Shown piece after piece: positions 5,586 through 56,024 of a stretch of DNA of 64,000 nt (position 1 is the stretch's first letter; each line of letters begins with the position of its first letter). A program made the position numbers and the translations under genes. The DNA comes from Gammaproteobacteria bacterium (GTDB taxonomy: Bacteria; Pseudomonadota; Gammaproteobacteria; Ga0077536): the NCBI GenBank assembly GCA_020849475.1, contig JADLGE010000071.1, positions 18,753 to 82,752 of the forward strand, written 5' to 3'. The notes under the pieces were generated by a model. It saw only the letters and a program-made list of their open reading frames with translations, was not told the origin of the DNA and did no database searches.

Positions 5586-7172
5586 ATGTCGGCCCCGCAA
5601 TTGAACGGCACGATCACCAACTCCAAGGCCCCGCTCCCACGTCGCGATGGGGTGGCTGATCGCGTCGCATCGGAAACGATCTCCAGGCTGCAACGCGGCA
5701 TTCTGCGACTCGCGCTCGCCTACCACGGGCGTAGCCCCGATCTCGACAAGAAGCTCAAGGAAATGGGCGGCCTGGTGCGCGCCGGCCGTCGCGATGCGCT
5801 GTTGCAGCGCCTGATAGACGAAATCGTCAGCACCATCGTCGCACTCGACCTGGAACCGGCTATCGGCGGTGCGACGGCGCCAGCCAGCGTCACTCCCGCG
5901 GGTCCCGAGCAGCCGGATCTGCTTCACCATTTCTTCGATCACCTGCAACTGCCGCCGGCGCTGTTGCTGGAAGTCGAGCGCGTGCGCAAGCGCATCGCCG
6001 CCAAGAGCAACACGGCAGAACTGCTTGAGCAGGTCGAACAGGCTTCGGCGGCAATTTCGGAACGCCTGGCGCTGGCCGCCGACAACAGGCGCAGTATCGA
6101 CAGCGCGCGCCAGTCGCTGCTCGACCTCATCGATCGCATCCCGGTGTCGCGCAACCTGGCCAGCGAAGCCGCGCAGCTGCGTCGCACCATCGAAACCATC
6201 GCCGGGCCCGAGGAAATTCGTCCTTGCACGACCGCGCTCGCGCAATTGGTCGGCAAACTCCGCGAGGAGATGCAGGCCGAGCTCGATCGTCTGGCCGAAT
6301 TCCTGCGCGGCACCGCACGTCGACTGCAGGAATTCGAACAAGTCATGCAGCGCTCGCGCGAGATGTATGCAGAAAGCGAGGCGGATGCCTTGCAGTTGAG
6401 CGAAACCATCTGCGTTGGCGTCAGGGAAGTGCGGCTTAGCGTCGGCGAAGCCGACGATCTCGACGCGCTCAAGGTACTCATTGAGAGCAAACTCGAAGTC
6501 ATCGACAACGGCCTGACGCAATTCGTGTCGAGCCAGTCGGTGCGCGCGGCTGAAGCCGGCGACGTCATCGAGCGCATGACCCATCGCTTGAAGGATCTCG
6601 AACAGCAGGCGCTGCATCTGCGCGAAGATCTGGAAGTCCAGCACGCCCGCGTGCTGATGGATCCCTTGACCGGCATTCTCAACCGCGCCGGTTACACCGA
6701 GATGGCCAGCAAGCATTTTGCGCGCTGGAAACGCTATGGCGGCGCTTTGAGCCTGGGTGTCATCGATCTGGATCTGTTCAAGGAAATCAATGATCGCTAT
6801 GGCCACGCGGCCGGCGACAAGGTGTTGGCCACGGTCGCCTCCAAACTCAAGGAAGTGATCCGCGAAAGTGATGTGCTATGCCGTTTCGGCGGCGAGGAAT
6901 TCGTGCTGCTGCTGCCGGAAACTTCGGTGTCGGACGCACGCACCATGCTCGAAAAGCTGCGCAATCACATCGCCGACTGTCCGTTCCGGCATAAAGACAC
7001 CCCGGTGCGCGTGACCATGTCCTGCGGCGTCGCCCAGTTCCAGGCCACCGACACCATCGACAGCGTATTCGAACGTGCGGATCTGGCGATGTATGCCGCC
7101 AAGCAGGGCGGCCGCAATCGAGTGTGCACCGAGCTCGATCCGATGCCGGAAGCCGCCCCCGCCCACGACTGA
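5586..7172 (+). CDS. Diguanylate cyclase (GGDEF domain) with long N-terminal coiled-coil region
   Basis: C-terminal GGDEF domain with RxGGEEF motif and inhibitory-site RESD; N-terminal ~350 aa are predicted helical/coiled coil with no recognisable sensor domain. Confidence 0.88.
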
Positions 7173-33069: not shown

Positions 33070-33273
33070 GGTCTTCCTTTGAGCGCCTTATGTCCTGCCG
33101 TGGCTCGCGCGGCCCCTCACGCTTGTTTAAGCTTTAGCGAAAGGGCGCCCAGCATGGGCTTCACAGGTTGAGATCAACGGAAGATGCGCCGATAACTTGA
33201 GCGCGAGCCCACTGACCCCTGCTCGTCCGCGCGACGCCGGATGGTCCGGCGCACCCCATTGGAGAACCATTGC

Positions 33274-34257
33274 GTGTCACAACGCCCCCTCGAAAACATC
33301 ACCGAACCGCGCCTGCGCGCGACCGCCGCCGGCGAGGCCCAGCGCGCCCTGCTGGCAACGGTCATCAAGACCGCCGAGCAGGTGGTGTTCGGCAAATCCA
33401 ACGAGATTCGCCTGGCGCTGGCCTGCCTGCTGGCGCGCGGCCATCTGTTGATTGAAGACCTGCCGGGGGTCGGCAAGACCACCCTCGCGCACTTGCTGGC
33501 GCGCCTCATGGGCGTCGAATTCCAACGCATCCAGTTCACCAGCGATCTGTTGCCGGCCGATGTGCTGGGCGTCTACGTCTACGAGCGCGACGCCGCGCGC
33601 TTCACGTTTCACCCCGGCCCGGTGTTCACCAACGTCGTGCTGGCCGATGAAATCAACCGCGCCACGCCGCGCGCCCAGAGTGCGCTCCTGGAGGCGATGG
33701 AAGAACGGCAGGTGACGATAGAGAACGAAACCCATGGGCTGCCGCAGCCGTTCTTCGTCATCGCCACCCAAAATCCCAGCGATCAGATAGGCACCTTCGC
33801 GCTGCCGGAGTCGCAGCTCGATCGATTTCTCATGTGCATTTCCCTGGGCTACCCCGACCGCCGCGCCGAGCGCGCGCTGCTGAAAGCGCCGGACCGCCGC
33901 GCGGCACTGTCGGAACTCGCGCCGGTGCTGTCGCGCGAGGATTTGCTCGAACTGCAGGACAAGGTCGATGGTGTGCATGTCAGCGATGCACTGCTCGACT
34001 ACGTGCAGGACTTGCTCGACTACAGCCGCCGCGCGCCGCAGTTCGGCTGTGGCCTGTCGCCGCGCGCCGGCCTGGCCTTGCTGCGCGCGGCGCGCGCCTG
34101 GGCCTTGATCGACGGGCGCAACCACGTGCTGCCCGATGACATCCAGGCGGTGCTGGCGAGCGTGGCCGTGCACCGCGTGCGGCCGCTCGATGCCTCGCGC
34201 GGTGTGGATGCGGCCTTCATACGCGAGCAACTCGCCAACGCCGTGCCGATCCCGTGA
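33274..34257 (+). CDS. MoxR-like AAA+ ATPase
   Basis: GTG 33274 placed 8 nt after GGAGA (alternative ATG 33241); Walker A GVGKTT, Walker B VVLADEINRA. Confidence 0.88.
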   Translation: MSQRPLENITEPRLRATAAGEAQRALLATVIKTAEQVVFGKSNEIRLALACLLARGHLLIEDLPGVGKTTLAHLLARLMGVEFQRIQFTSDLLPADVLGVYVYERDAARFTFHPGPVFTNVVLADEINRATPRAQSALLEAMEERQVTIENETHGLPQPFFVIATQNPSDQIGTFALPESQLDRFLMCISLGYPDRRAERALLKAPDRRAALSELAPVLSREDLLELQDKVDGVHVSDALLDYVQDLLDYSRRAPQFGCGLSPRAGLALLRAARAWALIDGRNHVLPDDIQAVLASVAVHRVRPLDASRGVDAAFIREQLANAVPIP

Positions 34258-35219
34258 GCGCCGTCACCGCGCGGGCCGCGCGGCCCGCGCAACAGCGCCT
34301 GGACAGGCGACAGGTCTATATCTTCCCGACCGCGGCGGGCGTGACCTTCGGCTTCATGCTCGGCGTCATCCTGATCGGCGCCATCAACTACGACAACGCC
34401 TTGGGCTACCTGCTGGCCTTTCTGCTGTTCGGCCTGGTGTTGGTGGCGATGCTGCACACCTATCGCAATCTCAACGGCCTCATTTATCGCGGTGCGCGCG
34501 CGCTGCCGGTGCATGCCGGCAGTGATGCGCTGTTTGAATGCCAGTTCGAGAATTCGTCGCCCTTAGCGCGCCTCGCCCTGCGACTCGGGCCATGGCCACG
34601 CGGCATGGACAAACTGACGCGACGGTTCATGCAAAGCACCCACACGGCCATGGACATCGCGCCTGGCATCGTCGCCAATGTCGGCGTGCCGCGCCTGACC
34701 GAGAAGCGCGGCTGGACAACCCTCGGCCGGCTGCGCGTCGAAAGCGTCTATCCCTTGGGCATTCTGCGCGCCTGGGCCTATTTCGACGGCGACAGCCAAT
34801 GCCTCGTCTATCCCGCGCCGCGCGGCCATCTGCCGCTGCCGTTCGCGCCCGCCACCGCCAGCGGGCTGACGCAGTTGCACGGTGTGGGCAGCGATGAATT
34901 CGCCGGACTGCGGCCCTACACGCCGGGCGATCCGGTGCGCGCCATCGCGTGGAAGACCCTCGCCCGCGAACGCGAGGTGATGGTCAAACGCTTCCACGGC
35001 CAGGGCGCGCTGCGCGTACTGTTGTCGTGGTCGGCGGTCGCTTCATTGGCCGGCGCCGAGCCGCGCCTGTCGCAGCTGTGTCAGTGGGTGCTGGAAGCGC
35101 ATGGCGCCGGCCACAGTTACGCACTCGAACTGCCGGGCGTGTCGGTGGGCTTTGGCCACGGCCGCGAGCACCGTGATGAATGTCTGCGCGTGCTCGCGCT
35201 GTACGAGGCGCCGCCGTGA
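34254..35219 (+). CDS. DUF58 family protein (MoxR partner)
   Basis: Overlaps moxR stop by 4 nt; two N-terminal TM helices; DUF58 core (GSDEFAGLRPYTPGD). Confidence 0.8.
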   Translation: MSAVTARAARPAQQRLDRRQVYIFPTAAGVTFGFMLGVILIGAINYDNALGYLLAFLLFGLVLVAMLHTYRNLNGLIYRGARALPVHAGSDALFECQFENSSPLARLALRLGPWPRGMDKLTRRFMQSTHTAMDIAPGIVANVGVPRLTEKRGWTTLGRLRVESVYPLGILRAWAYFDGDSQCLVYPAPRGHLPLPFAPATASGLTQLHGVGSDEFAGLRPYTPGDPVRAIAWKTLAREREVMVKRFHGQGALRVLLSWSAVASLAGAEPRLSQLCQWVLEAHGAGHSYALELPGVSVGFGHGREHRDECLRVLALYEAPP

Positions 35220-37189
35220 ATCCCACGCCCTTGAGCGCGCGCGAAGTGCTGTGGGTGGCGGTGGTGCTGCTGCTCGCGCTGTTGCCGCACATGCCGCGCT
35301 TTCCGCTGATTCTCGACGCGGGCTTCGTGCTGGCCTGCGGCTGGCGCTACCTCGGCGCGCAGGGCGTGCTGCCCTTGCCGGACCGCGAGCACCGCCTGCT
35401 GTGGTTGTTGAAGCAATTGCTGGCCATCACGGCCTTCGTCACCATCTACATCGCGTTTCGCGGCAAGCTCGGTCGCGATGCCGGTGTCGAACTGCTGGCC
35501 GCGCTGCTGGGTTTGAAACTGCTGGAGATGCGCAGCCCGCGCGATTACTACGTGGTGACCTTGCTGTGCTATTTCCTGGTGGTCACCAATTTCTTTTATG
35601 CGCAGACCATTCCAACCGCGCTCTACATGCTCGGCGTGGTGATTGCCGCGACCGCGGTGCTCATTCAATACAACACGCCGCCCGCCTATCGCCAGCCGCG
35701 CGCCATGCTGCGCCTGTCGGCGCTGATGACCGCGCAGTCGATACCGCTGATGCTGCTCGCCTTCGTGCTGTTTCCGCGCATCCCGGGGCCGCTGTGGGGC
35801 ATGCCGCAGGACGCCTTCGATGCGGTGACGGGCCTCTCCGACAGCATGACGGTCGGCGACATCACGCGCCTCGGCATGTCGAACGAAATCGCATTTCGCG
35901 TGCAGTTCCACGGCCCGGAGCCGCGTGCCCGCGCGCGCTACTGGCGCGGCCCGGTGCTGTGGCACAGCGACGGCCGCGCCTGGCAGGTCGGCGCCTTTGC
36001 CGACCATCCGGCGCCGCTCGAGCATCATGGCCAGCGCTATCTCTACACCGTCACCATGGAGCCTCACCGCAAGCACTGGCTGCTGGGCCTCGATGTCGTC
36101 ACCGCCAAACCGCGCGACGTCATGCAGACCGCCGACTATGCCTTGAAGACCCGCCAGCCGCTGCGCACGCGCATGCGCTACGACCTCGAGTCGGCCATCG
36201 AATATCGCATGACGGGATTAAGCGACGCGGAGCGGCGCGCCGCCCTCGAAATTCCTCGTGGCCACCATCCCCGCGCACGTGAGCTCGGGGCGCAGTGGCG
36301 CGCCGAGACCCGTCAAGAGGATGCCATCATCGCGCGTGCGCTGGATTTCTATCGCGCCGGCAAGTTCGTCTATTCACTGACGCCGCCGACCCTGCCCGGC
36401 GACACCGTCGATGACTTCCTGTTCACGACACACGAAGGCTTCTGTGAACACTTCGCGTCGAGCTTCGTCATGCTCATGCGCGCGGCCGGCATTCCGGCGC
36501 GCGTCGTCACCGGCTACCAGGGCGGTGAATACAACGAAGTGGGTGAATACATGGTGGTGCGTCAGCGCGACGCCCACGCCTGGGCCGAGGTCTATCTCGA
36601 CGGGCGCGGCTGGGCACGTGTCGACCCGACCGCCACCGTCGCGCCCAACCGCGTATCGCTCGGCTTTGCCGATGCCAATCCGCGCGGCGCACCGGGCACG
36701 GGCTTTGCGCGTGATGCCTTGAGCGGCCGCGTGTGGACGCGCCTGCGCGATTCCTTCGACGCCATCACCTATGGCTGGAATCAATGGGTGCTGGGCTATA
36801 CCACGGCGCAACAGCGCAACCTGTTCGAAGAACTCGGCTTCGAAGACCTCGACTACGGCTCGTTGGTGATAGCGCTCACGCTGGCGCTCGCGTTGACCAC
36901 CGGCGCGCTGGCCTGGCTCATGTGGCGCGCGACACGTCGGCCGCGCGATCCGCTCAGCGCCGCCTATGGGACCTTCTGCGCCAGGCTCGCACGCATCGGC
37001 TTCACGCGCGGTGCGAGCGAAGCGCCGCTGGCGTTTGCGGAAAGGGTCTGCCGGCTGCGCGGAGATCTGGCCGACGAAGTGCGCGCCATCACGCGGCTGT
37101 ATGGTCTCTTGCGCTACGGACGCGGCGGTGTGGATGTGAAAGTGCTGCGGCGAAAAGTGGCTAATTTCAGGCCGAAGCGACAGGTGTGA
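35180..37189 (+). CDS. Transglutaminase-like / DUF3488 membrane protein (TgpA-like)
   Basis: Multi-TM N-terminal half, transglutaminase core with Cys/His (GFCEHFASSF...AHAWAEVYLDGRGWARVDPT); in-frame GTG 35216 overlapping DUF58 stop is an alternative start. Confidence 0.8.
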   Translation: MSARARAVRGAAVNPTPLSAREVLWVAVVLLLALLPHMPRFPLILDAGFVLACGWRYLGAQGVLPLPDREHRLLWLLKQLLAITAFVTIYIAFRGKLGRDAGVELLAALLGLKLLEMRSPRDYYVVTLLCYFLVVTNFFYAQTIPTALYMLGVVIAATAVLIQYNTPPAYRQPRAMLRLSALMTAQSIPLMLLAFVLFPRIPGPLWGMPQDAFDAVTGLSDSMTVGDITRLGMSNEIAFRVQFHGPEPRARARYWRGPVLWHSDGRAWQVGAFADHPAPLEHHGQRYLYTVTMEPHRKHWLLGLDVVTAKPRDVMQTADYALKTRQPLRTRMRYDLESAIEYRMTGLSDAERRAALEIPRGHHPRARELGAQWRAETRQEDAIIARALDFYRAGKFVYSLTPPTLPGDTVDDFLFTTHEGFCEHFASSFVMLMRAAGIPARVVTGYQGGEYNEVGEYMVVRQRDAHAWAEVYLDGRGWARVDPTATVAPNRVSLGFADANPRGAPGTGFARDALSGRVWTRLRDSFDAITYGWNQWVLGYTTAQQRNLFEELGFEDLDYGSLVIALTLALALTTGALAWLMWRATRRPRDPLSAAYGTFCARLARIGFTRGASEAPLAFAERVCRLRGDLADEVRAITRLYGLLRYGRGGVDVKVLRRKVANFRPKRQV

Positions 37190-37210: not shown

Positions 37211-37317
37211 AATTGAATGTCAGACTCAAGTCTGACCCACAAAATCAGCGACCTTCTTCCTGTCGGTCAGACTTGAGTCTGACATTGAGTCGCTTGCATG
37301 TGCGAATGAATTCACAC
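37211..37317. repeat. REP-like element, inverted pair of unit A hairpins plus unit B (gcatgtgcgaatgaattcacacct)
   Basis: aatgtcagac-tcaa-gtctgac ... gtcagac-ttga-gtctgacatt read directly. Confidence 0.85.
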
Positions 37318-39198: not shown

Positions 39199-40092
39199 AT
39201 GTCCGAATTGCATCCCATCGTGGCCGTCACCGGTTCGTCCGGGGCCGGCACCAGCAGCGTCAAGACTGCCTTCGAGCGCATCTTTCAGCGCGAGGGCATC
39301 AATCCGGCCGTCATCGAGGGCGACAGCTTCCATCGCTACGATCGCAAGCAGATGGCGTGGGAGGTCGAGAAGGCCGCCCTGCAAGGCAAGACCCTCACCC
39401 ACTTCGGCCCCGACGGCAATCTGCTCGGCGAACTCGAAACCCTGTTCCGCACCTACGGCGACAACGGCAGCGGCAAGCGCCGCTACTATGTGCACACCAC
39501 CAAGGAATCGAAGCGCCTGGAGAGCAAACCCGGCAGCTTCACCGAATGGCAGCCCTTGCCGCGCGACACCGACCTGTTGTTCTACGAGGGCCTGCATGGC
39601 GGCTTCATGGGCGACGAGGCCAATATCGCGCGCTTCGTCGATTTGCTGGTCGGGGTGGTGCCGATCATCAACCTCGAATGGATACAGAAGATTCACCGTG
39701 ACCGCGCGGTGCGCGGCTACTCGGCTGAGGCCGCCACCCAGATGATCCTGCGGCGCATGCCCGATTACGTGCATTACATCTGCCCGCAGTTCTCGCGCAC
39801 CGACGTCAATTTTCAGCGCGTGCCGACCATCGACACCTCCAATCCCTTCACCGCCAGCGAGATCCCGAGCAACGACGAGAGCATGGTGGTGGTAAAGATT
39901 GCCAACCGGCGCAAGATCAACCCGGATTACCGCTACCTGCTGGAAATGCTGCAGGGCTCGTTCATGTCGCGCCCGGACACCATTGTGGTGCCGGCGGACA
40001 AGATGGTGTTCGCCATGGAGCTGCTGTTGAACCCGGTCATCGAACGCATGATGGAGCGGCGTGATCAGGCGGTGAAACAAAGCGCGGCCTGA
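39199..40092 (+). CDS. prk: Phosphoribulokinase
   Basis: 297 aa; N-terminal P-loop VAVTGSSGAGTSSV; strong similarity to bacterial PRK from memory. Confidence 0.88.
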   Translation: MSELHPIVAVTGSSGAGTSSVKTAFERIFQREGINPAVIEGDSFHRYDRKQMAWEVEKAALQGKTLTHFGPDGNLLGELETLFRTYGDNGSGKRRYYVHTTKESKRLESKPGSFTEWQPLPRDTDLLFYEGLHGGFMGDEANIARFVDLLVGVVPIINLEWIQKIHRDRAVRGYSAEAATQMILRRMPDYVHYICPQFSRTDVNFQRVPTIDTSNPFTASEIPSNDESMVVVKIANRRKINPDYRYLLEMLQGSFMSRPDTIVVPADKMVFAMELLLNPVIERMMERRDQAVKQSAA

Positions 40093-43828: not shown

Positions 43829-43897
43829 TTGTGGGTCAGACTTCAGTCTGACATTCAATTGCGCGGCTCAAGTGTCAGGCTGAAGACTGACCCACAA
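43829..43897. repeat. REP-like element, inverted pair of unit A hairpins (tgtgggtcagac-ttca-gtctgacatt ... gtgtcaggc-tgaa-gactgacccacaa)
   Basis: Read directly. Confidence 0.85.
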
Positions 43898-49130: not shown

Positions 49131-50030
49131 ATGAGCGAGGCGCTTTTCGAGCCGCCAGGCCGCACCGACGACCGGCTGCTGCTGACCATCGTGATCGCGG
49201 CCGCGGTGCATGTGATGGTGGTGCTGGGCGTGCGTCTGCCGCCCGAAGCGCCGGTCAAGTCGCGCTTCTCGGCGATGGAAGTCGAGCTGGTGCCGGCCGC
49301 GCCGCCGAGCGCGACCAGCGCCGCACTCACAGCGGCCAGCGATGGCGCCGAGGAACCGCCGCTGCTGCCCATGGCGCCGGTCGAGAAGCCGGCGGTCAAG
49401 GCCGCGCCCATGCCGACCATTGCAGAGGAGAAACCCACGCCTGCGCCGATGGCCACGGTCGCGTCCAAGCCCACACCCACGCCGAAGAGCCGTAGCACCT
49501 CGCCACCGCCCGCGGCCGTCGCGCCCACGGCCGTCGAGCGCGCGCCGCACGCCGAGCCGGCCAGCGACACCGCACCGGCCCTGCCGCTGCCGACGGCCTC
49601 GCAATTGATTGCACGCTCACTCGCCATCGCCGCCACCGGCGCCGGCCTCATTGAAGACAGGACCATCAGCGGTCAGTCCGTCAGCGAGCGCACGCTCTAT
49701 ATCAAGAACAACACCCGCGACCTGACCGAGATGGCCTATGCCGAAGGGGTGCGCAACCGCGCCAAGCGTTTCGGCGAGCTGTTCGAACGCGATGTGCCCA
49801 GCGGCCGCGTCGGCCTCGACGTGGCGGTGGCCAGCGACGGCAGCCTGGCCAAGGTCGTCATCACCAAGTCATCGGGTATCGAGGCGACCGACGCCAAGGC
49901 CATTCGCATCATCGAAAAGGCCGCGCCTTTCGGCGCGCTGCCGCCCGAGATGGCCAGGAAATACGATGTCGCGCACATCGAATTCACCATGAGCATCGTC
50001 GACGACCAGGGCTTCAACGGTGGTCAGTAA
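49131..50030 (+). CDS. TonB family energy transducer
   Basis: N-terminal TM, Pro/Ala-rich spacer, C-terminal TonB domain. Confidence 0.8.
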   Translation: MSEALFEPPGRTDDRLLLTIVIAAAVHVMVVLGVRLPPEAPVKSRFSAMEVELVPAAPPSATSAALTAASDGAEEPPLLPMAPVEKPAVKAAPMPTIAEEKPTPAPMATVASKPTPTPKSRSTSPPPAAVAPTAVERAPHAEPASDTAPALPLPTASQLIARSLAIAATGAGLIEDRTISGQSVSERTLYIKNNTRDLTEMAYAEGVRNRAKRFGELFERDVPSGRVGLDVAVASDGSLAKVVITKSSGIEATDAKAIRIIEKAAPFGALPPEMARKYDVAHIEFTMSIVDDQGFNGGQ

Positions 50031-51024
50031 CGTGCGCGCGCTGCGCCAGGCCACGCGCCCCGGCGACATCAACAGCGACGATCGCCTGGCGCTGACCATC
50101 GTGGTGGCCATCGTGCTGCATGCGATGGTGCTGCTGGGCGTGAGCTTCGCCCCCGAGCCCAATGCGCCGTCGCGCTTCGAATCGATGGAAGTGATCCTGG
50201 TCGCGGAAAAATCCGCCAAGGCGCCCAAGCACGCCAAGCTGCTGTCGCAGGCCAACCTCGAAGGCGGCGGCGACAGCGACGACGATGTGCGGCCGAGCGC
50301 GCCGGTCAAGGCGCCCCTGCCGGCGCCAACCGCGGCGGTGGCGAGTCCGCCGCCACCGCCGGCCCATGCACAGCCGGCGCCACCGGTGGAGCAACCCGCG
50401 CCAGCGCCGGCCCGCGAAGGCCAGCGGCAGGTCAAGGATCACGTGGCGCGGGTCGCCGAACACGGCGAGCTACCGTTGCCGAACAAGAGCGCGACGCGCC
50501 CGACGCAGGTCAGGCCCGAGGCGCCGCCCGAGCCTCAGCCTGAAGCGCAGCCGGTGGTCGACAACGAGCCCTTGCCCGACGGCGCCCAGCAGCTGGTGCA
50601 TTCCTTCGCCATCGCCAACCTGTCGGCCGAGATCCAGGAAAAGCTCGAAAGCCGCGCCAAGCGGCCGCGACGCAAATACGTGTCGGCCACCACCCAGGAA
50701 TACCGCTATGCCGCCTACATGGAAGCGTGGCGCGCCAAGGTCGAGCGCATCGGCAACATCAATTATCCGGAGGAAGCGCGCCGTCGACGCCTGTCCGGCA
50801 CGGTGATGCTGGACGTGGCGGTCAACCGCGATGGCAGCGTCGGCGAGATCAGTGTGCGCAAATCGTCCGGCATCACACTGCTGGACGATGCCGCCGTGCG
50901 CAGCGTGCACCTCGCCGCGCCCTATGATCCGCTGCCGCCGGAGATCCGTAAGGAAGTCGACGAGCTGCACGTGACCCGCACCTGGAAGTTCTTCGACACG
51001 AGTGCGGTGCAGGTCTCGCGCTGA
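50020..51024 (+). CDS. TonB family energy transducer (tandem paralog)
   Basis: GTG overlapping upstream stop; same architecture with (PEPQ) Pro-rich spacer and TonB C-terminal domain. Confidence 0.8.
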   Translation: MVSNVRALRQATRPGDINSDDRLALTIVVAIVLHAMVLLGVSFAPEPNAPSRFESMEVILVAEKSAKAPKHAKLLSQANLEGGGDSDDDVRPSAPVKAPLPAPTAAVASPPPPPAHAQPAPPVEQPAPAPAREGQRQVKDHVARVAEHGELPLPNKSATRPTQVRPEAPPEPQPEAQPVVDNEPLPDGAQQLVHSFAIANLSAEIQEKLESRAKRPRRKYVSATTQEYRYAAYMEAWRAKVERIGNINYPEEARRRRLSGTVMLDVAVNRDGSVGEISVRKSSGITLLDDAAVRSVHLAAPYDPLPPEIRKEVDELHVTRTWKFFDTSAVQVSR

Positions 51025-52135: not shown

Positions 52136-52651
52136 ATGCACGAACTCGAACAACTCGACGTCGATACCCTGATCGCGGACATCGCCGCGCGTCTGAAAAA
52201 ACGTATCGCGGAGCAGAATCTCTCCAATCCGGCGCTGGTCGGCATACGCACCGGCGGTGTGTGGCTGGCGCAGCGCCTGCAGAAGAAATTGAAACTGGCG
52301 GGCCCTATCGGCGAATTGAACATCGCCTTCTATCGCGATGACTTCAGCCGCATCGGCATGCATCCGACCGTCGAGCCGTCGGCGCTGCCTTTCGATGTCA
52401 ACGACCGGCACCTGCTGCTGGTCGACGACATCCTCTACACCGGCCGCACCATACGCGCGGCCATGAACGAGATTTTTGACTACGGCCGGCCGCGTTCAAT
52501 CAGCCTGGTGGTGCTGATCGACCGCGGCGGGCGTGAACTGCCCATCGATGCCAGCGTCTATGGCGCGCGCGTCACCCTCGCCCCGGGTCAGCATGTTAAA
52601 CTTCTCGGACCCGATCCCCTGCGACTCGAAATTGGCGCGACCAAGTCATGA
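52136..52651 (+). CDS. pyrR: Bifunctional pyrimidine operon regulator / uracil phosphoribosyltransferase
   Basis: 171 aa; PRPP-binding LLLVDDILYTGRT motif. Confidence 0.92.
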   Translation: MHELEQLDVDTLIADIAARLKKRIAEQNLSNPALVGIRTGGVWLAQRLQKKLKLAGPIGELNIAFYRDDFSRIGMHPTVEPSALPFDVNDRHLLLVDDILYTGRTIRAAMNEIFDYGRPRSISLVVLIDRGGRELPIDASVYGARVTLAPGQHVKLLGPDPLRLEIGATKS

Positions 52652-52706: not shown

Positions 52707-53675
52707 ATGGCGCAGGACAGCATCCAACTCGACAGCCAGGGGCGCCTGAAGCACTTCCTGACCACCGAGCATCTGCCTCGCAGCCTGCTCACCGCCATCC
52801 TCGACAATGCCGAACGCTTCACCGTGGTCGGCGACAGGGCGGTCAAGAAAGTGCCTTTGCTGCGCGGCAAGACCGTCGTCAACCTGTTCTTCGAGCCGAG
52901 CACGCGCACCCGCACGACTTTCGAACTGGCGGCCAAGCGCCTGTCGGCCGACGTCATGAATCTCAACATCGAGGCCAGCGCCGCCAAGAAGGGCGAGTCG
53001 CTGGCCGACACCCTGCGCACCCTCGAAGCGATGCAGACCGACATGTTCGTGGTGCGTCATCATGAATCGGGCGCGCCGGAATTCATCGCGCGCCAGGTCG
53101 GACCCGAGGTCAGCGTCATCAATGCCGGCGACGGTCGCCATGCGCACCCGACCCAGGCCATGCTCGACATGTTCACCATCCGCCGCTACAAGCGCGATTT
53201 CACCCAGTTGAAAGTGGCCATCGTCGGCGATGTCGCCCATTCGCGCGTGGCACGCTCCGAAATCCATGCATTGAAGACCCTCGGCGTGCCGGAGATTCGC
53301 GTGGTCGGGCCCAAGACCCTGCTGCCGCGCGGCATCGAGGCGCTGGGCGTCGACGTGCATCATTCCCTCGAGACCGGTCTCGCAGGCGTCGACGTGGTGA
53401 TGATGCTGCGCCTGCAACAGGAGCGCATGCAGAGTGCCTTGCTGCCTAGCGGCCATGAATACTTCCACACCTTTGGCCTGACGCCGGCGCGTTTGAAGCG
53501 CGCCAAGCCCGACGCCATCGTCATGCACCCCGGCCCCATCAACCGCGGCGTCGAAATCGATTCGGCGGTGGCGGACGGCAAGCAGTCGGTGATCCTGCAG
53601 CAAGTCACCCACGGCATCGCGGTGCGCATGGCGGTGATGTCGATGGCGATGGGCACCGCCGCCCAGGCCTCATGA
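52707..53675 (+). CDS. pyrB: Aspartate carbamoyltransferase catalytic subunit
   Basis: STRTR carbamoyl-phosphate motif, HPTQ, HPGP motifs. Confidence 0.93.
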
Positions 53676-53685
53676 AATTCCAAGC

Positions 53686-54966
53686 ATGAAGATTACGATC
53701 AGTGGCGGTCGGGTCATCGACCCGGTCAACCAGCGCGACGAAGTCGTCGATGTGTTCATCGACGGCGACACCATCATCGGCCTCGGCCGCACGCCCGCCG
53801 GCTTCAAGCCGGCACGCGTCATCGACGCGACGGGCGCCATCGTGTGCCCGGGCTTCACCGAAGTCGGCGCGCGCCTGCGCGAACCTGGCGCCGAGCACAA
53901 AGCCACCATCGTCAGCGAACTCGAAGCAGCAGCAGCATCCGGCTTCACCACCGTGTGCTGCATGCCCGACACCAATCCGGTCATCGACACGCCGGCGGTG
54001 GTGGAACTCGTCAACCAGCGCGCGCGCGGCGTGCGCGGCGCGCGGGTCCGTTGCATCGGCGCCTTGACCCAGGATCTCGGCGGCTCGGTGCTGGCCGAAA
54101 TGGCGGCGCTGAAGGACATCGGCTGCGTGGGCGTGGCCAACGCCGGCCATGCGCTGCGCGACAGCAATGTCTTGAAGAACGCCCTCGCCTATGCGGCGAC
54201 GCTCGACATGACGGTGTTCCTCGATGCCGAAGACCCGTGGTTGGCGGCGCAGGGCTGTATGCACGAGGGCGCGGTCAGCACCCGTCTCGGCCTGCCCGGC
54301 ATTCCGGCCGCGGCCGAACTCATCGGCCTCGGGCGCGACCTGGTGCTGCTCGAAGACAGCGGCGCACGCGCCCACTTCCGCACTCTGACCTGTGGCCGCT
54401 CCATCAAGTACGTCAACAACGCACGCAAGACCGGCCTCGAGGTCAGCGCCAGCGTCGGCATCTCACACCTCGTGTTGACCGACGAAGACATCACGCGCTT
54501 CGACGGCCTGTTTCATGTGCGCCCGCCGCTGCGCACGCGGCGCGATCGCGCGCGCCTCATCCGCGGGCTCGCCGAGGGCCAGGTCGAAGTGCTGTCGGCC
54601 CATCATGAACCCCATGACGCCGACGCCAAGGCCGGCCCCTTCGGCGCCACCGCGCCCGGCATCTCGACCTTCGACAGCTTTCTGCCGTCCATGCTGCAGC
54701 TGGTCGAAGCCGGCCATCTCGATCTCATGCGCGCCATCGATGCCGCGGCCGTGCAGCCGGCACGGGTGATTGGCAACGCGTCGGCCAGCCTCGGCGTCGA
54801 CGCGCTGGCCGACATCTGCATCTTTTCGCCGGGCGAGCTCTGGACCTTGAGCGCCGACACCATGATGAGCAGCGGCAAGAACACGCCTCTGCTCGGGCGC
54901 AGCATGAAAGGCCGCGTGCTGGCGACCCTGGTCGGCGGTCGCATCGTCTTCGAACGGAAGGCCTGA
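53686..54966 (+). CDS. pyrC': Dihydroorotase-like protein, probably non-catalytic (PyrC')
   Basis: DHOase fold, but the N-terminal metal-binding HxH position reads PGFTEVGARLREPG (no His pair). Confidence 0.85.
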   Translation: MKITISGGRVIDPVNQRDEVVDVFIDGDTIIGLGRTPAGFKPARVIDATGAIVCPGFTEVGARLREPGAEHKATIVSELEAAAASGFTTVCCMPDTNPVIDTPAVVELVNQRARGVRGARVRCIGALTQDLGGSVLAEMAALKDIGCVGVANAGHALRDSNVLKNALAYAATLDMTVFLDAEDPWLAAQGCMHEGAVSTRLGLPGIPAAAELIGLGRDLVLLEDSGARAHFRTLTCGRSIKYVNNARKTGLEVSASVGISHLVLTDEDITRFDGLFHVRPPLRTRRDRARLIRGLAEGQVEVLSAHHEPHDADAKAGPFGATAPGISTFDSFLPSMLQLVEAGHLDLMRAIDAAAVQPARVIGNASASLGVDALADICIFSPGELWTLSADTMMSSGKNTPLLGRSMKGRVLATLVGGRIVFERKA

Positions 54967-54967
54967 G

Positions 54968-55858
54968 ATGGGTGACGCGGCCAATATCGCCCGTCCGCAC
55001 CGCGGCACGATAGGGCTCACCGACGCGAAGATAATCGCCGTCGAACACTTCGAAGGGGCGCAGCATTATCTGCGTCTCGACTGTCCTGGCATCGCCGCGC
55101 GCGCCCTGCCCGGCAGCTTCGTGCATCTTAAATGCGACAACGAACTGCCGATGCGGCGGCCAATGTCGGTGATGCGGGTATCGGCCCAGGACGGCTGGCT
55201 GGACGTTCTCTACAAGGCCCACGGCCACGGCAGCGGTCTGCTCGCGACACGCGTGGTCGGTGAGACTTTGAGCGTGATGGGCCCCATCGGCCAGCCGTTC
55301 AAATTGCGCGACTACCGGCCGCGCCCCCTGCTGATTGGGGGCGGCGTCGGCATGCCGCCGATGCTGTTCCTGGCCGAACATCTGCGCGCCACCGCGAAGC
55401 AGGTGCAGCCCTTGGTGCTGCTCGGCTCCGAAGTGCCGTTCCCATTCAGCGCACGCCCCTCGACCATCATGGTGCCCGGCGTGCCGCCTCAGGTGATCGC
55501 GGCCATGCCGCTGCTGGAGGACTGGCATATTGCCTCACGGCTCGCGAGCCTCGCTGGTTTTGCCGGCTGCTTTGAGGGTTATGTGACGGATCTCGCGCGT
55601 GAGTGGCTGACTACCAGCGGCGTGGCGCGTGATGACGTCGAGATCTTCGCCTGCGGTCCGACGCCCATGCTGCGCGCCGTGCAGCGACTCGCGGCAGAGC
55701 TCGCGCTGCCCTGTCAGATCTCGCTCGAGGAATACATGGCCTGCGCGGTCGGCGGCTGCGCCGGCTGCACAGTCAAGGTCGAGACCGCCAACGGGCCGGC
55801 CATGAAGCGCGTGTGCGTGGACGGACCGGTGTTCGAAGCGTCGACAGTCGTAATTTGA
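54968..55858 (+). CDS. PyrK-like FAD/NAD(P)-binding oxidoreductase with C-terminal 2Fe-2S cluster
   Basis: FNR-like module (RRPMSV, GGGVGMPP) plus C-terminal CxxxxCxxC...C (CAVGGCAGC...C). Confidence 0.72.
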   Translation: MGDAANIARPHRGTIGLTDAKIIAVEHFEGAQHYLRLDCPGIAARALPGSFVHLKCDNELPMRRPMSVMRVSAQDGWLDVLYKAHGHGSGLLATRVVGETLSVMGPIGQPFKLRDYRPRPLLIGGGVGMPPMLFLAEHLRATAKQVQPLVLLGSEVPFPFSARPSTIMVPGVPPQVIAAMPLLEDWHIASRLASLAGFAGCFEGYVTDLAREWLTTSGVARDDVEIFACGPTPMLRAVQRLAAELALPCQISLEEYMACAVGGCAGCTVKVETANGPAMKRVCVDGPVFEASTVVI

Positions 55859-55891: not shown

Positions 55892-56024
55892 TTGAATGCC
55901 AGGCTGAAGCCTGCCCCACAAAGCGCCCTCGTCGACTGTTGAAACCCATTGTGGGTCAGACTTCAGTCTGACATTCGCATTGATTGGCGCGCCTGCGAAT
56001 GTGCGAATGAATTCGCACCTACAA
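55892..56024. repeat. REP-like composite element (unit A x2 plus unit B aatgtgcgaatgaattcgcacct)
   Basis: ttgaatgccaggctgaagcctgcccca ... tgtgggtcagacttcagtctgacattc ... gtgcgaatgaattcgcac. Confidence 0.85.

What the first reader, a model, noticed from the sequence alone, without database searches (positions are those of the whole stretch)
54968..55858. PyrK-like 2Fe-2S flavoprotein appended to the pyrR-pyrB-pyrC' operon
The gene starts 2 bp after pyrC'. It encodes an FNR-fold FAD/NAD(P)-binding protein with a C-terminal CxxxxCxxC...C cluster motif, the architecture of the PyrK electron-transfer subunit of class 1B dihydroorotate dehydrogenase. Gammaproteobacteria normally use quinone-dependent class 2 PyrD and lack PyrK. 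No pyrD is present in the window, so the redox partner of this protein is unknown.
Basis: partly seen in the sequence, partly recalled or inferred. Interest (0 to 1): 0.5.

Follow-up and report, generated by a model that had tools for sequence, protein, structure and literature searches.

The report
PyrK subunit gene in pyrRBC' operon
This gene encodes the iron-sulfur flavoprotein (PyrK) half of an NAD-linked "class 1B" dihydroorotate dehydrogenase; its catalytic partner gene (pyrD) appears to sit elsewhere in the genome, so this is an unusual gene arrangement of a known enzyme, shared by hundreds of environmental Gammaproteobacteria, and not a new system.

Summary
A 296-aa ORF (54968-55858, +) starts one base after the pyrC' stop codon. 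It encodes an FNR-fold flavoprotein with RRPMS, GGGVGMPP and a C-terminal Cx4Cx2C...C [2Fe-2S] domain (PF10418). Its best HMM, PDB and fold matches are PyrK and the related NfnA.

It is not an oddity of this genome. At least 555 GTDB species carry an ortholog, and 67 of the 80 best loci keep pyrB-pyrC'-pyrK. The gene is more conserved than pyrC', and its start usually overlaps or abuts the pyrC' stop.

No pyrD lies in the window or within 6 kb in any of those loci. More distant homologs that share the same enlarged NAD-domain segment sit directly beside a class-1B pyrD (pyrC-pyrK-pyrD or pyrK-pyrD). That adjacent PyrD has its closest relatives in Gammaproteobacteria: Granulosicoccaceae, Sulfurivermis, Sulfuriflexus, Thioalbus and Thiohalomonas. 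There pyrD is unlinked to pyrK, usually next to trmL, and it passes the curated class-1 PyrD models.

Most likely this is the electron-transfer subunit of a split-gene class 1B DHODH. I could not show that pyrD and pyrK occur in the same genome. Databases already give the protein this name, but I found no paper describing it. Interest is modest.

The parts
52136..52651 (+). pyrR, first gene of the pyr cluster
   Evidence: NF003545 PyrR scores 215.8 bits (cutoff 140). It is present upstream in 63 of 80 related loci.
52707..53675 (+). pyrB, aspartate carbamoyltransferase catalytic chain
   Evidence: NF002032 scores 410 bits (cutoff 263). Pfam finds OTCace_N and OTCace.
53686..54966 (+). pyrC', a DHOase-like protein without the HxH metal ligands (presumed inactive structural subunit)
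   Evidence: NF005791 scores 437.5 bits (cutoff 442). The motif PGFTEVGARLREPG replaces the D-x-H-V-H of active DHOases in L090 and L085.
54956..54961 (+). Shine-Dalgarno-like GGAAGG inside the end of pyrC', 6 nt before the ATG
   Evidence: Read directly from the sequence. No promoter-like or terminator-like site lies between pyrC' and the gene.
54968..55858 (+). pyrK-type gene: FAD/NAD(H)/[2Fe-2S] electron-transfer flavoprotein, 296 aa
   Evidence: Supported. The AF2 model has pLDDT 86 and pTM 0.87. Foldseek top hits are NfnA 4ylf_A (1.5e-18) and PyrK 5ksw_B/1ep1_B (target-normalised TM 0.79-0.80).
55154..55168 (+). R63-R64-P65-M66-S67, the FNR-family flavin-binding R-x-x-S motif
   Evidence: R63, R64, P65 and S67 are invariant in 32 homologs. 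The motif aligns to RRPIS of L. lactis PyrK.
55337..55360 (+). G124-G-G-V-G-M-P-P131, the nucleotide-binding loop of the NAD domain
   Evidence: Invariant except for M129. It aligns to GGGIGVPP of L. lactis PyrK.
55427..55525 (+). Residues 154-186 (SEVPFPFSARPSTIMVPGVPPQVIAAMPLLEDW): a conserved segment about 17 residues longer than in canonical PyrK
   Evidence: The segment is 32-38 residues in this subfamily and 15-17 in canonical PyrK representatives. It is highly conserved and modelled at pLDDT 83-94. PyrD-adjacent relatives P0161, P0213 and P0250 share it.
55727..55849 (+). C-terminal [2Fe-2S] domain (PF10418) with ligands C259, C264, C267 and C283
   Evidence: PF10418 at 3.7e-15. All four Cys are invariant.
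55894..55976 (.). Long imperfect inverted repeat (REP-like) in the 160-nt spacer after the gene; a candidate bidirectional transcript end
   Evidence: The arms are 28 nt and 86% complementary. The spacer folds at -68.6 kcal/mol, z = -5.1. The 28-nt unit recurs at 43829-43856 and 37215-37242. No canonical T-tract terminator was found.

Best explanation
The gene encodes the PyrK (electron-transfer) subunit of a class 1B, NAD-linked dihydroorotate dehydrogenase whose two genes have been separated. pyrK stays at the end of the pyrR-pyrB-pyrC' operon and is translationally coupled to pyrC'. The catalytic FMN subunit (class-1B-type PyrD) is encoded elsewhere; in related Gammaproteobacteria it typically sits next to trmL. 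Inferred mechanism, by homology to L. lactis and B. subtilis DHODB: PyrD oxidises dihydroorotate to orotate at FMN, using Cys as the catalytic base. Electrons then pass through the PyrK [2Fe-2S] cluster (C259/C264/C267/C283) to PyrK-bound FAD and on to NAD+. Pyrimidine synthesis therefore does not depend on the quinone pool or the respiratory chain. Shown here: the fold, the cofactor motifs, operon membership, strong conservation, and the existence of matching PyrD genes in the same lineages. Inferred: that this genome has such a PyrD, that the two proteins form the heterotetramer, and that NAD+ is the acceptor.
For: (1) Architecture. PF10418 and the FNR motifs are present. PyrK equivalog models are the best NCBIfam hits. 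PyrK chains are the best PDB sequence hits, 6e-20. The AF2 model superposes on PyrK and NfnA.
(2) Context. pyrB-pyrC'-pyrK is kept in 67 of 80 loci from distinct species, and all six genes algH-ruvX-pyrR-pyrB-pyrC'-pyrK in 63. It is also kept in Magnetococcales and other deep lineages. Where pyrC' is missing, the gene follows pyrB directly, with overlapping stop and start (L044, L067, L078, L097).
(3) Selection. Median identity across the 63 six-gene loci is 65% for PyrK, 50% for PyrC', 61% for PyrR, 53% for RuvX and 73% for PyrB.
(4) Link to PyrD. Homologs with the same long NAD-domain segment lie immediately upstream of a DHO_dh gene: L090 pyrC-pyrK-pyrD, and L087, L088 and L089 pyrK-pyrD with overlapping genes.
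(5) Partner pool. The nearest relatives of the L090 PyrD (60-69% identity) are gammaproteobacterial: Granulosicoccaceae, Sulfuriflexus mobilis, Sulfurivermis fontis, Thioalbus, Thiohalomonas and Ectothiorhodospiraceae BW-2. The Granulosicoccaceae one tested passes NF005574 (374 bits, cutoff 269) and TIGR01037 (329, cutoff 270). It matches DHODB PyrD chains at 1e-83 to 1e-85, against 1e-24 for class 1A and 1e-16 or weaker for class 2, and it carries the class-1 NISCPN cysteine. Granulosicoccaceae MAGs carry both the operon-borne pyrK (L058, L062) and this PyrD (P0304, P0310).
(6) These gamma PyrD genes are orphans too. No pyrK or pyrB lies within 10 kb in 80 metagenome loci, and trmL is adjacent in 63. 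This mirrors the orphan pyrK.
Against: I could not show that a class-1B PyrD is present in the same genome as this window. No tool allowed a whole-assembly search, and contig-length and accession matching found no shared replicon. The protein scores below every curated PyrK equivalog cutoff (134.5 against 314). However, the PyrD-adjacent relatives also score below it, at 105-125 bits. The Foldseek top hit is NfnA, not PyrK, though the E-values are nearly equal. The NAD domain carries a conserved segment about 17 residues longer than canonical PyrK, with unknown effect. pyrD is never adjacent to pyrK in any of about 80 gammaproteobacterial loci.
Confidence: 0.78

Rival explanations
1. It is an NfnA/SudB-type subunit that pairs with a GltD-like FAD/[4Fe-4S] protein (NADH-dependent ferredoxin:NADP+ oxidoreductase or sulfide dehydrogenase) and only happens to lie in the pyr operon.
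For: The Foldseek top hit is NfnA 4ylf_A at 1.5e-18. The NCBIfam sulfide/DHOD-like model PRK06222 scores 102 bits. NfnA chains are in the PDB sequence hits.
Against: No GltD-like gene is in the window. None appeared among the genes I examined next to the homologs. PyrK models outscore the NfnA-type model (134.5 against 102 bits). The pyr-operon context is conserved across classes of Proteobacteria. Relatives are adjacent to PyrD, not GltD.
Confidence: 0.04
2. It is an orphan PyrK-like protein that no longer serves DHODH. Instead it acts as a redox- or NADH-sensing accessory subunit of the PyrB-PyrC' aspartate carbamoyltransferase complex, made in fixed ratio with PyrC' through translational coupling.
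For: It is always linked to pyrB or pyrC' and never to pyrD in about 80 gamma loci. A start codon lies within -8 to +5 nt of the pyrC' stop in 45 of 67 loci. It is more conserved than PyrC' itself. PyrC' is a pseudo-enzyme that could act as a docking scaffold.
Against: The gene persists in the same chromosomal neighbourhood without any pyr gene upstream (L023, L025, L047) and in lineages lacking pyrC'. All catalytic cofactor motifs are invariant. An equally orphaned, highly conserved class-1B PyrD exists in the same lineages and needs a PyrK. Relatives sit next to PyrD.
Confidence: 0.08
3. It is a general NAD(P)H:acceptor reductase (ferredoxin-reductase-like) that supplies electrons to a different pyrimidine-related or unrelated enzyme, or that couples to a class 2 PyrD instead of quinone.
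For: The FNR superfamily is functionally diverse. There are weak hits to BenC, MmoC, AsrB and HydG-type reductases. No partner is encoded nearby.
Against: Those hits score 35-47 bits against 134.5 for PyrK. The PF10418 cluster domain is specific to the PyrK/NfnA/HydG/AsrB group. No oxygenase, hydrogenase or sulfite-reductase genes are nearby in any locus examined. Class 2 PyrD has no known Fe-S partner (established knowledge).
Confidence: 0.05

Closest known systems
PyrK of class 1B dihydroorotate dehydrogenase (Lactococcus lactis PyrK, PDB 1EP1-3 chain B; Bacillus subtilis PyrK)
   Same: It has the same three-part architecture: an FAD-binding barrel with R-x-x-S, an NAD domain with GGGxGxxP and CGP, and a C-terminal Cx4Cx2C...C [2Fe-2S] domain (PF10418). 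PyrK gives the best sequence hits (6e-20) and a target-normalised TM-score of 0.79-0.80. It lies in a pyrimidine operon under a PyrR gene.
   Different: Identity is only about 25%, and the score is below the curated equivalog cutoffs. The protein is 296 aa against about 260, with a conserved segment about 17 residues longer after the second strand of the NAD domain. The gene is not adjacent to pyrD; it follows an inactive pyrC' in a gammaproteobacterial pyrRBC' operon instead of the Firmicute pyrK-pyrD pair.
Uncharacterised long-segment PyrK proteins adjacent to PyrD (for example P0161 in Proteobacteria bacterium CG1_02_64_396, locus L090; also P0213 and P0295)
   Same: They share the enlarged NAD-domain segment (32-34 residues) and the same cluster motif. 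Identity to the window protein is 34-40%. L090 shares the pyrC-pyrK junction.
   Different: In these relatives pyrD follows directly, and the pyrC in L090 is an active-type DHOase with HxH. In the window lineage pyrD is elsewhere and pyrC is the inactive pyrC'.
NfnA / SudB (small subunit of NADH-dependent ferredoxin:NADP+ oxidoreductase, PDB 4YLF_A, 5JCA_S)
   Same: It has the same fold and cofactor set. Foldseek E-values are equal to or slightly better than those for PyrK.
   Different: NfnA is encoded next to the GltD-like NfnB. No such gene is in the window or was seen in the related loci examined, and HMM scores favour PyrK.
Pseudomonas-type pyrR-pyrB-pyrC' operon (P. aeruginosa PA0403-PA0401, downstream of algH-ruvX)
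   Same: The gene order algH-ruvX-pyrR-pyrB-pyrC' is the same, with an inactive DHOase-like PyrC'. pilT/pilU-yggS-proC neighbours occur in some related loci. The comparison with the Pseudomonas map rests on my own knowledge.
   Different: The Pseudomonas operon ends at pyrC', and that genus uses quinone-dependent class 2 PyrD (established knowledge). Here a fourth, translationally coupled gene (pyrK) is appended.

Membership tests
PyrK (class 1B DHODH electron-transfer subunit) | FNR-like FAD-binding barrel plus NAD-binding domain, with R-x-x-S and GGGxGxxP motifs | tested here: met
   RRPMS (63-67) and GGGVGMPP (124-131) are conserved. The AF2 model (pLDDT 86) matches PyrK and NfnA structures.
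PyrK (class 1B DHODH electron-transfer subunit) | C-terminal [2Fe-2S] domain with four Cys ligands (PF10418) | tested here: met
   PF10418 scores 55.8 bits (cutoff 23.9). C259, C264, C267 and C283 are invariant.
PyrK (class 1B DHODH electron-transfer subunit) | Scores above a curated PyrK equivalog HMM cutoff (NF000796-NF000799) | tested here: not met
   The best score is 134.5 bits against a cutoff of 314. As a control, PyrK-type proteins physically adjacent to PyrD (L090, L087, L089) also fail, at 105-125 bits. The cutoffs therefore exclude this whole long-segment subfamily and do not discriminate function.
PyrK (class 1B DHODH electron-transfer subunit) | Encoded next to, or co-transcribed with, the class 1B pyrD gene | tested here: not met
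   No pyrD is in the 64-kb window or within 6 kb in 80 related loci. No pyrK lies within 10 kb of 80 gamma-type pyrD loci. Adjacency is found only in more distant relatives.
PyrK (class 1B DHODH electron-transfer subunit) | A class 1B PyrD catalytic subunit is present in the same genome | not testable with these tools
   There is clade-level support only. NF005574/TIGR01037-passing PyrD genes occur in Granulosicoccaceae and other Gammaproteobacteria, and Granulosicoccaceae MAGs also carry the operon pyrK (L058, L062). No same-assembly link could be made.
PyrK (class 1B DHODH electron-transfer subunit) | Forms a PyrD2-PyrK2 heterotetramer and supports NAD+-dependent dihydroorotate oxidation | not testable with these tools
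   This needs biochemistry or at least complex modelling; only single-chain prediction was available.
NfnA / SudB | Adjacent GltD-like (NfnB/SudA) partner gene | tested here: not met
   No Fer4_20/GltD-type protein was found among the window ORFs scanned or in the annotated related loci.
PyrC' (inactive DHOase-like ATCase subunit), for the upstream gene | DHOase fold with loss of the HxH metal-binding motif, encoded directly after pyrB | tested here: met
   DHOase models give 437-444 bits. The motif reads TEVGARLREPG where active relatives read DIHVHFREPG or DMHVHLREPG. Catalytic inactivity itself was not tested.

The most novel reading that the evidence does not exclude
The operon-borne PyrK does not work simply as a free DHODB subunit. 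Instead it is made in fixed ratio with, and docks onto, the PyrB-PyrC' complex, with the pseudo-DHOase PyrC' serving as scaffold. This would either tether the unlinked PyrD into a carbamoyl-aspartate-to-orotate metabolon, or make aspartate carbamoyltransferase activity sensitive to NADH/NAD+ or Fe-S status. The conserved extra segment (residues 154-186) would be the docking surface.
Probability: 0.08. Interest if true: 0.7.

Novelty: new member of a known kind. Interest (0 to 1): 0.3.

Why it matters
Reviews assign class 1B (PyrD-PyrK, NAD+-linked) DHODH to Gram-positive bacteria and class 2 (quinone-linked) to Gram-negative bacteria (table in PMC10395836). This locus belongs to a very large and largely uncultured set of Gammaproteobacteria, including sulfur-oxidiser lineages, that appear to use the class 1B enzyme. 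In them the two genes are separated, and pyrK is placed under the pyrR-pyrB-pyrC' operon.

If this is confirmed, three things follow. Pyrimidine synthesis in these organisms would not depend on the quinone pool or oxygen; in Pseudomonas putida that property had to be engineered in with L. lactis pyrK-pyrDB to obtain micro-oxic growth (PMC7789669). The chain pyrC-pyrK-pyrD, then pyrRBC-pyrK, then the Pseudomonas-type pyrRBC' would suggest how the proteobacterial pyr operon evolved. And metabolic reconstructions of MAGs should look for an unlinked pyrD before calling the pathway incomplete.

The function itself is ordinary, and annotation pipelines already predict it.

Tried and rejected
- **pyrD in the window or in 83 related loci.** I searched with remembered E. 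coli PyrD and L. lactis PyrDB probes, and later with real class-1B PyrD sequences. Nothing was found.
- **The seven loci that break synteny, as a route to a partner gene.** The neighbours I scanned were an MscS-like channel, a GST, PilT/PilU ATPases, an epimerase, GlnE, YggS and PyrB. None suggests a redox partner.
- **Same-genome linkage of pyrK and pyrD.** Three approaches all gave no match.
  - Matching contig lengths between the PyrK and PyrD hit lists.
  - Comparing NCBI protein accession series.
- **A metagenome scan around gamma-type pyrD.** 80 loci (754 kb) contained no pyrK or pyrB within 10 kb.
- **Regulatory signals.** There was no Rfam hit in 50.0-57.5 kb, including no PyrR-binding attenuator. 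There was no canonical terminator and no + strand promoter-like site in 51.5-56.6 kb.
- **Literature.** No open-access paper combines pyrK, Gammaproteobacteria and dihydroorotate dehydrogenase. Broader searches returned only Firmicute work.
- **AlphaFold-database fold search.** The library was unavailable.
- **PLSDB protein search.** It returned only canonical PyrK at 29-32% identity in Listeria, Bacillus, Ilyobacter, Monoglobus and Neorhizobium replicons.
- **Annotating the whole window by exact-protein look-ups.** This was inefficient, so I replaced it with Pfam scans of the larger ORFs.
Full report
**Observation**

The ORF 54968-55858 (+) is real. It is 296 aa with an ATG start. The pyrC' stop TGA occupies 54964-54966, and one spacer base precedes the ATG. 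An SD-like GGAAGG lies 6 nt upstream, inside pyrC'. Its GC by codon position (0.69/0.49/0.81) matches that of neighbouring genes.

The identical protein is already on record as NCBI MCC6709254.1, named 'dihydroorotate dehydrogenase electron transfer subunit', from Gammaproteobacteria MAGs. The upstream genes are algH, ruvX, pyrR, pyrB and a DHOase-like gene. The DHOase-like gene has lost the HxH metal motif: it reads TEVGARLREPG where active relatives read DIHVHFREPG. The label pyrC' is therefore justified.

No pyrD of any class is in the window. I checked by tblastn with remembered class 2 and 1B probes, by tblastn with genuine class-1B PyrD sequences, and by Pfam scans of 20 larger ORFs.

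**Classification**

Pfam finds the DHODB Fe-S domain PF10418 at 3.7e-15 for residues 254-294. The best NCBIfam hits are the four PyrK equivalog models, with a maximum of 134.5 bits. They score ahead of the sulfide/DHOD-like NfnA-type model (102), hydrogenase gamma (47) and AsrB (43). All are below their curated cutoffs.

The best PDB sequence hits are L. lactis PyrK chains at 6e-20, followed by NfnA. An AlphaFold2 model built on 32 homologs has pLDDT 86 and pTM 0.87. Its best structural matches are NfnA (4ylf_A, 1.5e-18) and PyrK (5ksw_B and 1ep1_B, target-normalised TM 0.79-0.80).

In the 32-sequence alignment, R63, R64, P65, S67, G124-G128, P130, P131, C229-G-P and the four cluster cysteines C259, C264, C267 and C283 are invariant.

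One feature departs from canonical PyrK. Residues 154-186 (SEVPFPF..RPS.IMVPG.P..VIAAMPLLEDW) form a segment about 17 residues longer than the equivalent stretch in canonical PyrK representatives: 32-38 residues against 15-17. The segment is strongly conserved and confidently modelled. This explains why HMM and PDB alignments break into two stretches.

**Distribution and synteny**

The family is very large. Both searches of the 5.8-billion-protein collection with a gamma-clade PyrK query hit the 8000-candidate ceiling. A profile search of 1.84 billion representatives gave 2083 proteins at E <= 1e-30.

In one-genome-per-species GTDB contigs, 555 stretches encode a relative. Among the best 80 loci, 67 keep pyrB-pyrC'-pyrK and 63 keep all six genes algH-ruvX-pyrR-pyrB-pyrC'-pyrK. 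Across those 63 loci, median identity to the window proteins is:

| Protein | Median identity |
|---|---|
| PyrB | 73% |
| PyrK | 65% |
| AlgH | 63% |
| PyrR | 61% |
| RuvX | 53% |
| PyrC' | 50% |

The gene is therefore under stronger constraint than most of its operon. A start codon lies within -8 to +5 nt of the pyrC' stop in 45 of 67 loci, and the modal arrangement is a 4-nt overlap. That figure uses the start nearest the stop, which biases it toward short spacers.

Several variants occur:
- pyrB-pyrK without pyrR or pyrC' (L044, L067, L078, L097).
- A stand-alone gene between an MscS-like gene and pilT/pilU (L023, L025, L047).
- An in-frame RuvX::PyrK fusion on two Mb-scale contigs.

Outside the Gammaproteobacteria, Magnetococcales carry pyrR-pyrB-pyrC-pyrK.

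**The partner**

No redox partner is encoded near the gene in any gammaproteobacterial locus. More distant members of the same long-segment subfamily are informative:
- P0161 (Proteobacteria bacterium CG1_02_64_396, locus L090) lies in pyrC-pyrK-pyrD. Its pyrC is an active-type DHOase.
- P0295 (L087, L088) and P0213 (L089) are each followed by an overlapping DHO_dh gene of 311-324 aa.

These PyrD-adjacent proteins score 105-125 bits against the PyrK equivalog model, no better than the window protein. Failing the curated cutoffs therefore does not argue against PyrK function.

I then searched with the L090 PyrD. Its nearest relatives, at 60-69% identity, are overwhelmingly gammaproteobacterial. 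They include Granulosicoccaceae MAGs, Sulfuriflexus mobilis, Ectothiorhodospiraceae bacterium BW-2, Thioalbus denitrificans, Thiohalomonas denitrificans and Sulfurivermis fontis, and JGI calls many of them 'DHOD (NAD+) catalytic subunit'.

The Granulosicoccaceae PyrD that I tested has these properties:
- It passes NF005574 (374 bits, cutoff 269) and TIGR01037 (329, cutoff 270).
- It fails the class 1A model (131, cutoff 301) and all quinone-dependent models.
- It matches the PyrD chains of DHODB structures at 1e-83 to 1e-85, against 1e-24 for class 1A and 1e-16 or weaker for class 2.
- It carries the class-1 NISCPN cysteine.

The gamma-type PyrDs are highly conserved, with 81% mean column identity. 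They are orphans in their turn: in 80 metagenome loci (754 kb) none has pyrK or pyrB within 10 kb, and trmL is the neighbour in 63. Granulosicoccaceae MAGs provide both an operon pyrK (L058, L062) and this PyrD (P0304, P0310).

**Mechanism**

The best-supported reading is a split-gene class 1B DHODH. By homology with the L. lactis and B. subtilis enzyme (established knowledge; Nielsen et al. 1996 and Kahler et al. 1999 as cited in PMC10395836), PyrD oxidises dihydroorotate at FMN. Electrons then pass through the PyrK [2Fe-2S] cluster to FAD and on to NAD+.

Placing pyrK behind pyrC' under the pyrR-headed cluster would tie its synthesis to pyrimidine demand. The 1-nt spacer and internal SD suggest translational coupling. 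Co-transcription, complex formation and the identity of the acceptor are all inferred, not shown. E155 is invariant and follows the second strand of the NAD domain, which would fit an NAD(H) preference over NADP(H); this is speculation from general Rossmann-fold rules.

**Rivals**

- An NfnA/SudB role is disfavoured. No GltD-like gene was found in the window or the loci examined, and the HMM ranking favours PyrK.
- A role as an accessory subunit of the PyrB-PyrC' complex is not excluded, and it is the most novel reading left open. Three points argue against it: the gene persists without pyrC' or any pyr neighbour, all cofactor motifs are fully conserved, and an equally orphaned class-1B PyrD exists that needs a PyrK.
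- A generic reductase role, or coupling to a class 2 PyrD, has no positive support.

**What remains open**

I could not prove that this genome encodes the class-1B PyrD. I also could not tell whether a class 2 PyrD coexists in these genomes.

**Novelty**

NCBI and JGI pipelines already name both proteins. I found no paper describing class 1B DHODH, or this operon form, in Gammaproteobacteria. A review table assigns class 1B to Gram-positive bacteria and class 2 to Gram-negative bacteria. I rate this a new member of a known kind, with an unusual and widely conserved gene arrangement. Interest is about 0.3.

Noticed in passing
window 55894-55976; also 43829-43856 and 37215-37242: There is a REP-like repeat. 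The 28-nt unit TTGTGGGTCAGACTTCAGTCTGACATTC occurs three times in the window, where none is expected by chance. After the pyrK gene it pairs with an upstream arm (28 nt, 86% complementary). The 160-nt spacer folds at -68.6 kcal/mol (z = -5.1). It may act as a bidirectional transcript end between pyrK (+) and the glutaredoxin-like gene (-).
   Followed up: partly
P0126 / P0271 (ENA contigs of 3.76 and 4.47 Mb): A 442-aa protein is an in-frame fusion of RuvX (YqgF) with the PyrK-type protein. On another contig the same sequence is split by a frameshift into 310-aa and 150-aa products. It could be a true fusion or a lost stop codon; this is unresolved.
   Followed up: partly
L044, L067, L078; L097: Some lineages lack pyrR and pyrC' altogether. 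In them pyrK follows pyrB directly with overlapping stop and start. The association is therefore with pyrB or the operon, not specifically with the pseudo-DHOase.
   Followed up: partly
L023, L025, L047 around 5960-6890: Here the PyrK-type gene stands alone between a divergent MscS-like channel gene and convergent pilT/pilU-type ATPase genes, with no pyr gene within 6 kb.
   Followed up: partly
L096 5997-6584: A higB-higA toxin-antitoxin pair is inserted between pyrC and the PyrK-type gene in one metagenome contig.
   Followed up: no
L085 / L086 8927-9445: In Magnetococcales, a 172-aa ORF with no Pfam hit starts at the last base of the PyrK-type gene. It occurs in both assemblies examined and may be an additional operon member.
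   Followed up: no
window 49131-50030 and 50020-51024: Two tandem TonB-like genes (TonB_C/TonB_2 domains) overlap by 11 nt. They lie between gshB and algH.
   Followed up: no
L004, L022, L031, L055 (also L020, L041, L045): Several public MAG records carrying this high-GC pyr operon are titled 'Klebsiella pneumoniae', 'uncultured Klebsiella sp.', 'Gemmatimonadota' or 'Hydrogenophaga intermedia'. The organism labels look wrong, because the loci share the gene order of, and 62-88% PyrK identity with, the unclassified Gammaproteobacteria loci.
   Followed up: no
window 39199-40092 and 33241-37189: A phosphoribulokinase-family gene and a MoxR-type AAA ATPase / DUF58 / transglutaminase (TgpA-like) gene trio lie upstream in the window. 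They appear unrelated to the finding.
   Followed up: no
L092, L093 and 63 of 80 loci L098-L177: The gammaproteobacterial class-1B-type pyrD is usually a single gene divergent from trmL (a SpoU methylase). It often lies near gpsA, secB and grx. This fixed address should help locate it in fragmented MAGs.
   Followed up: partly
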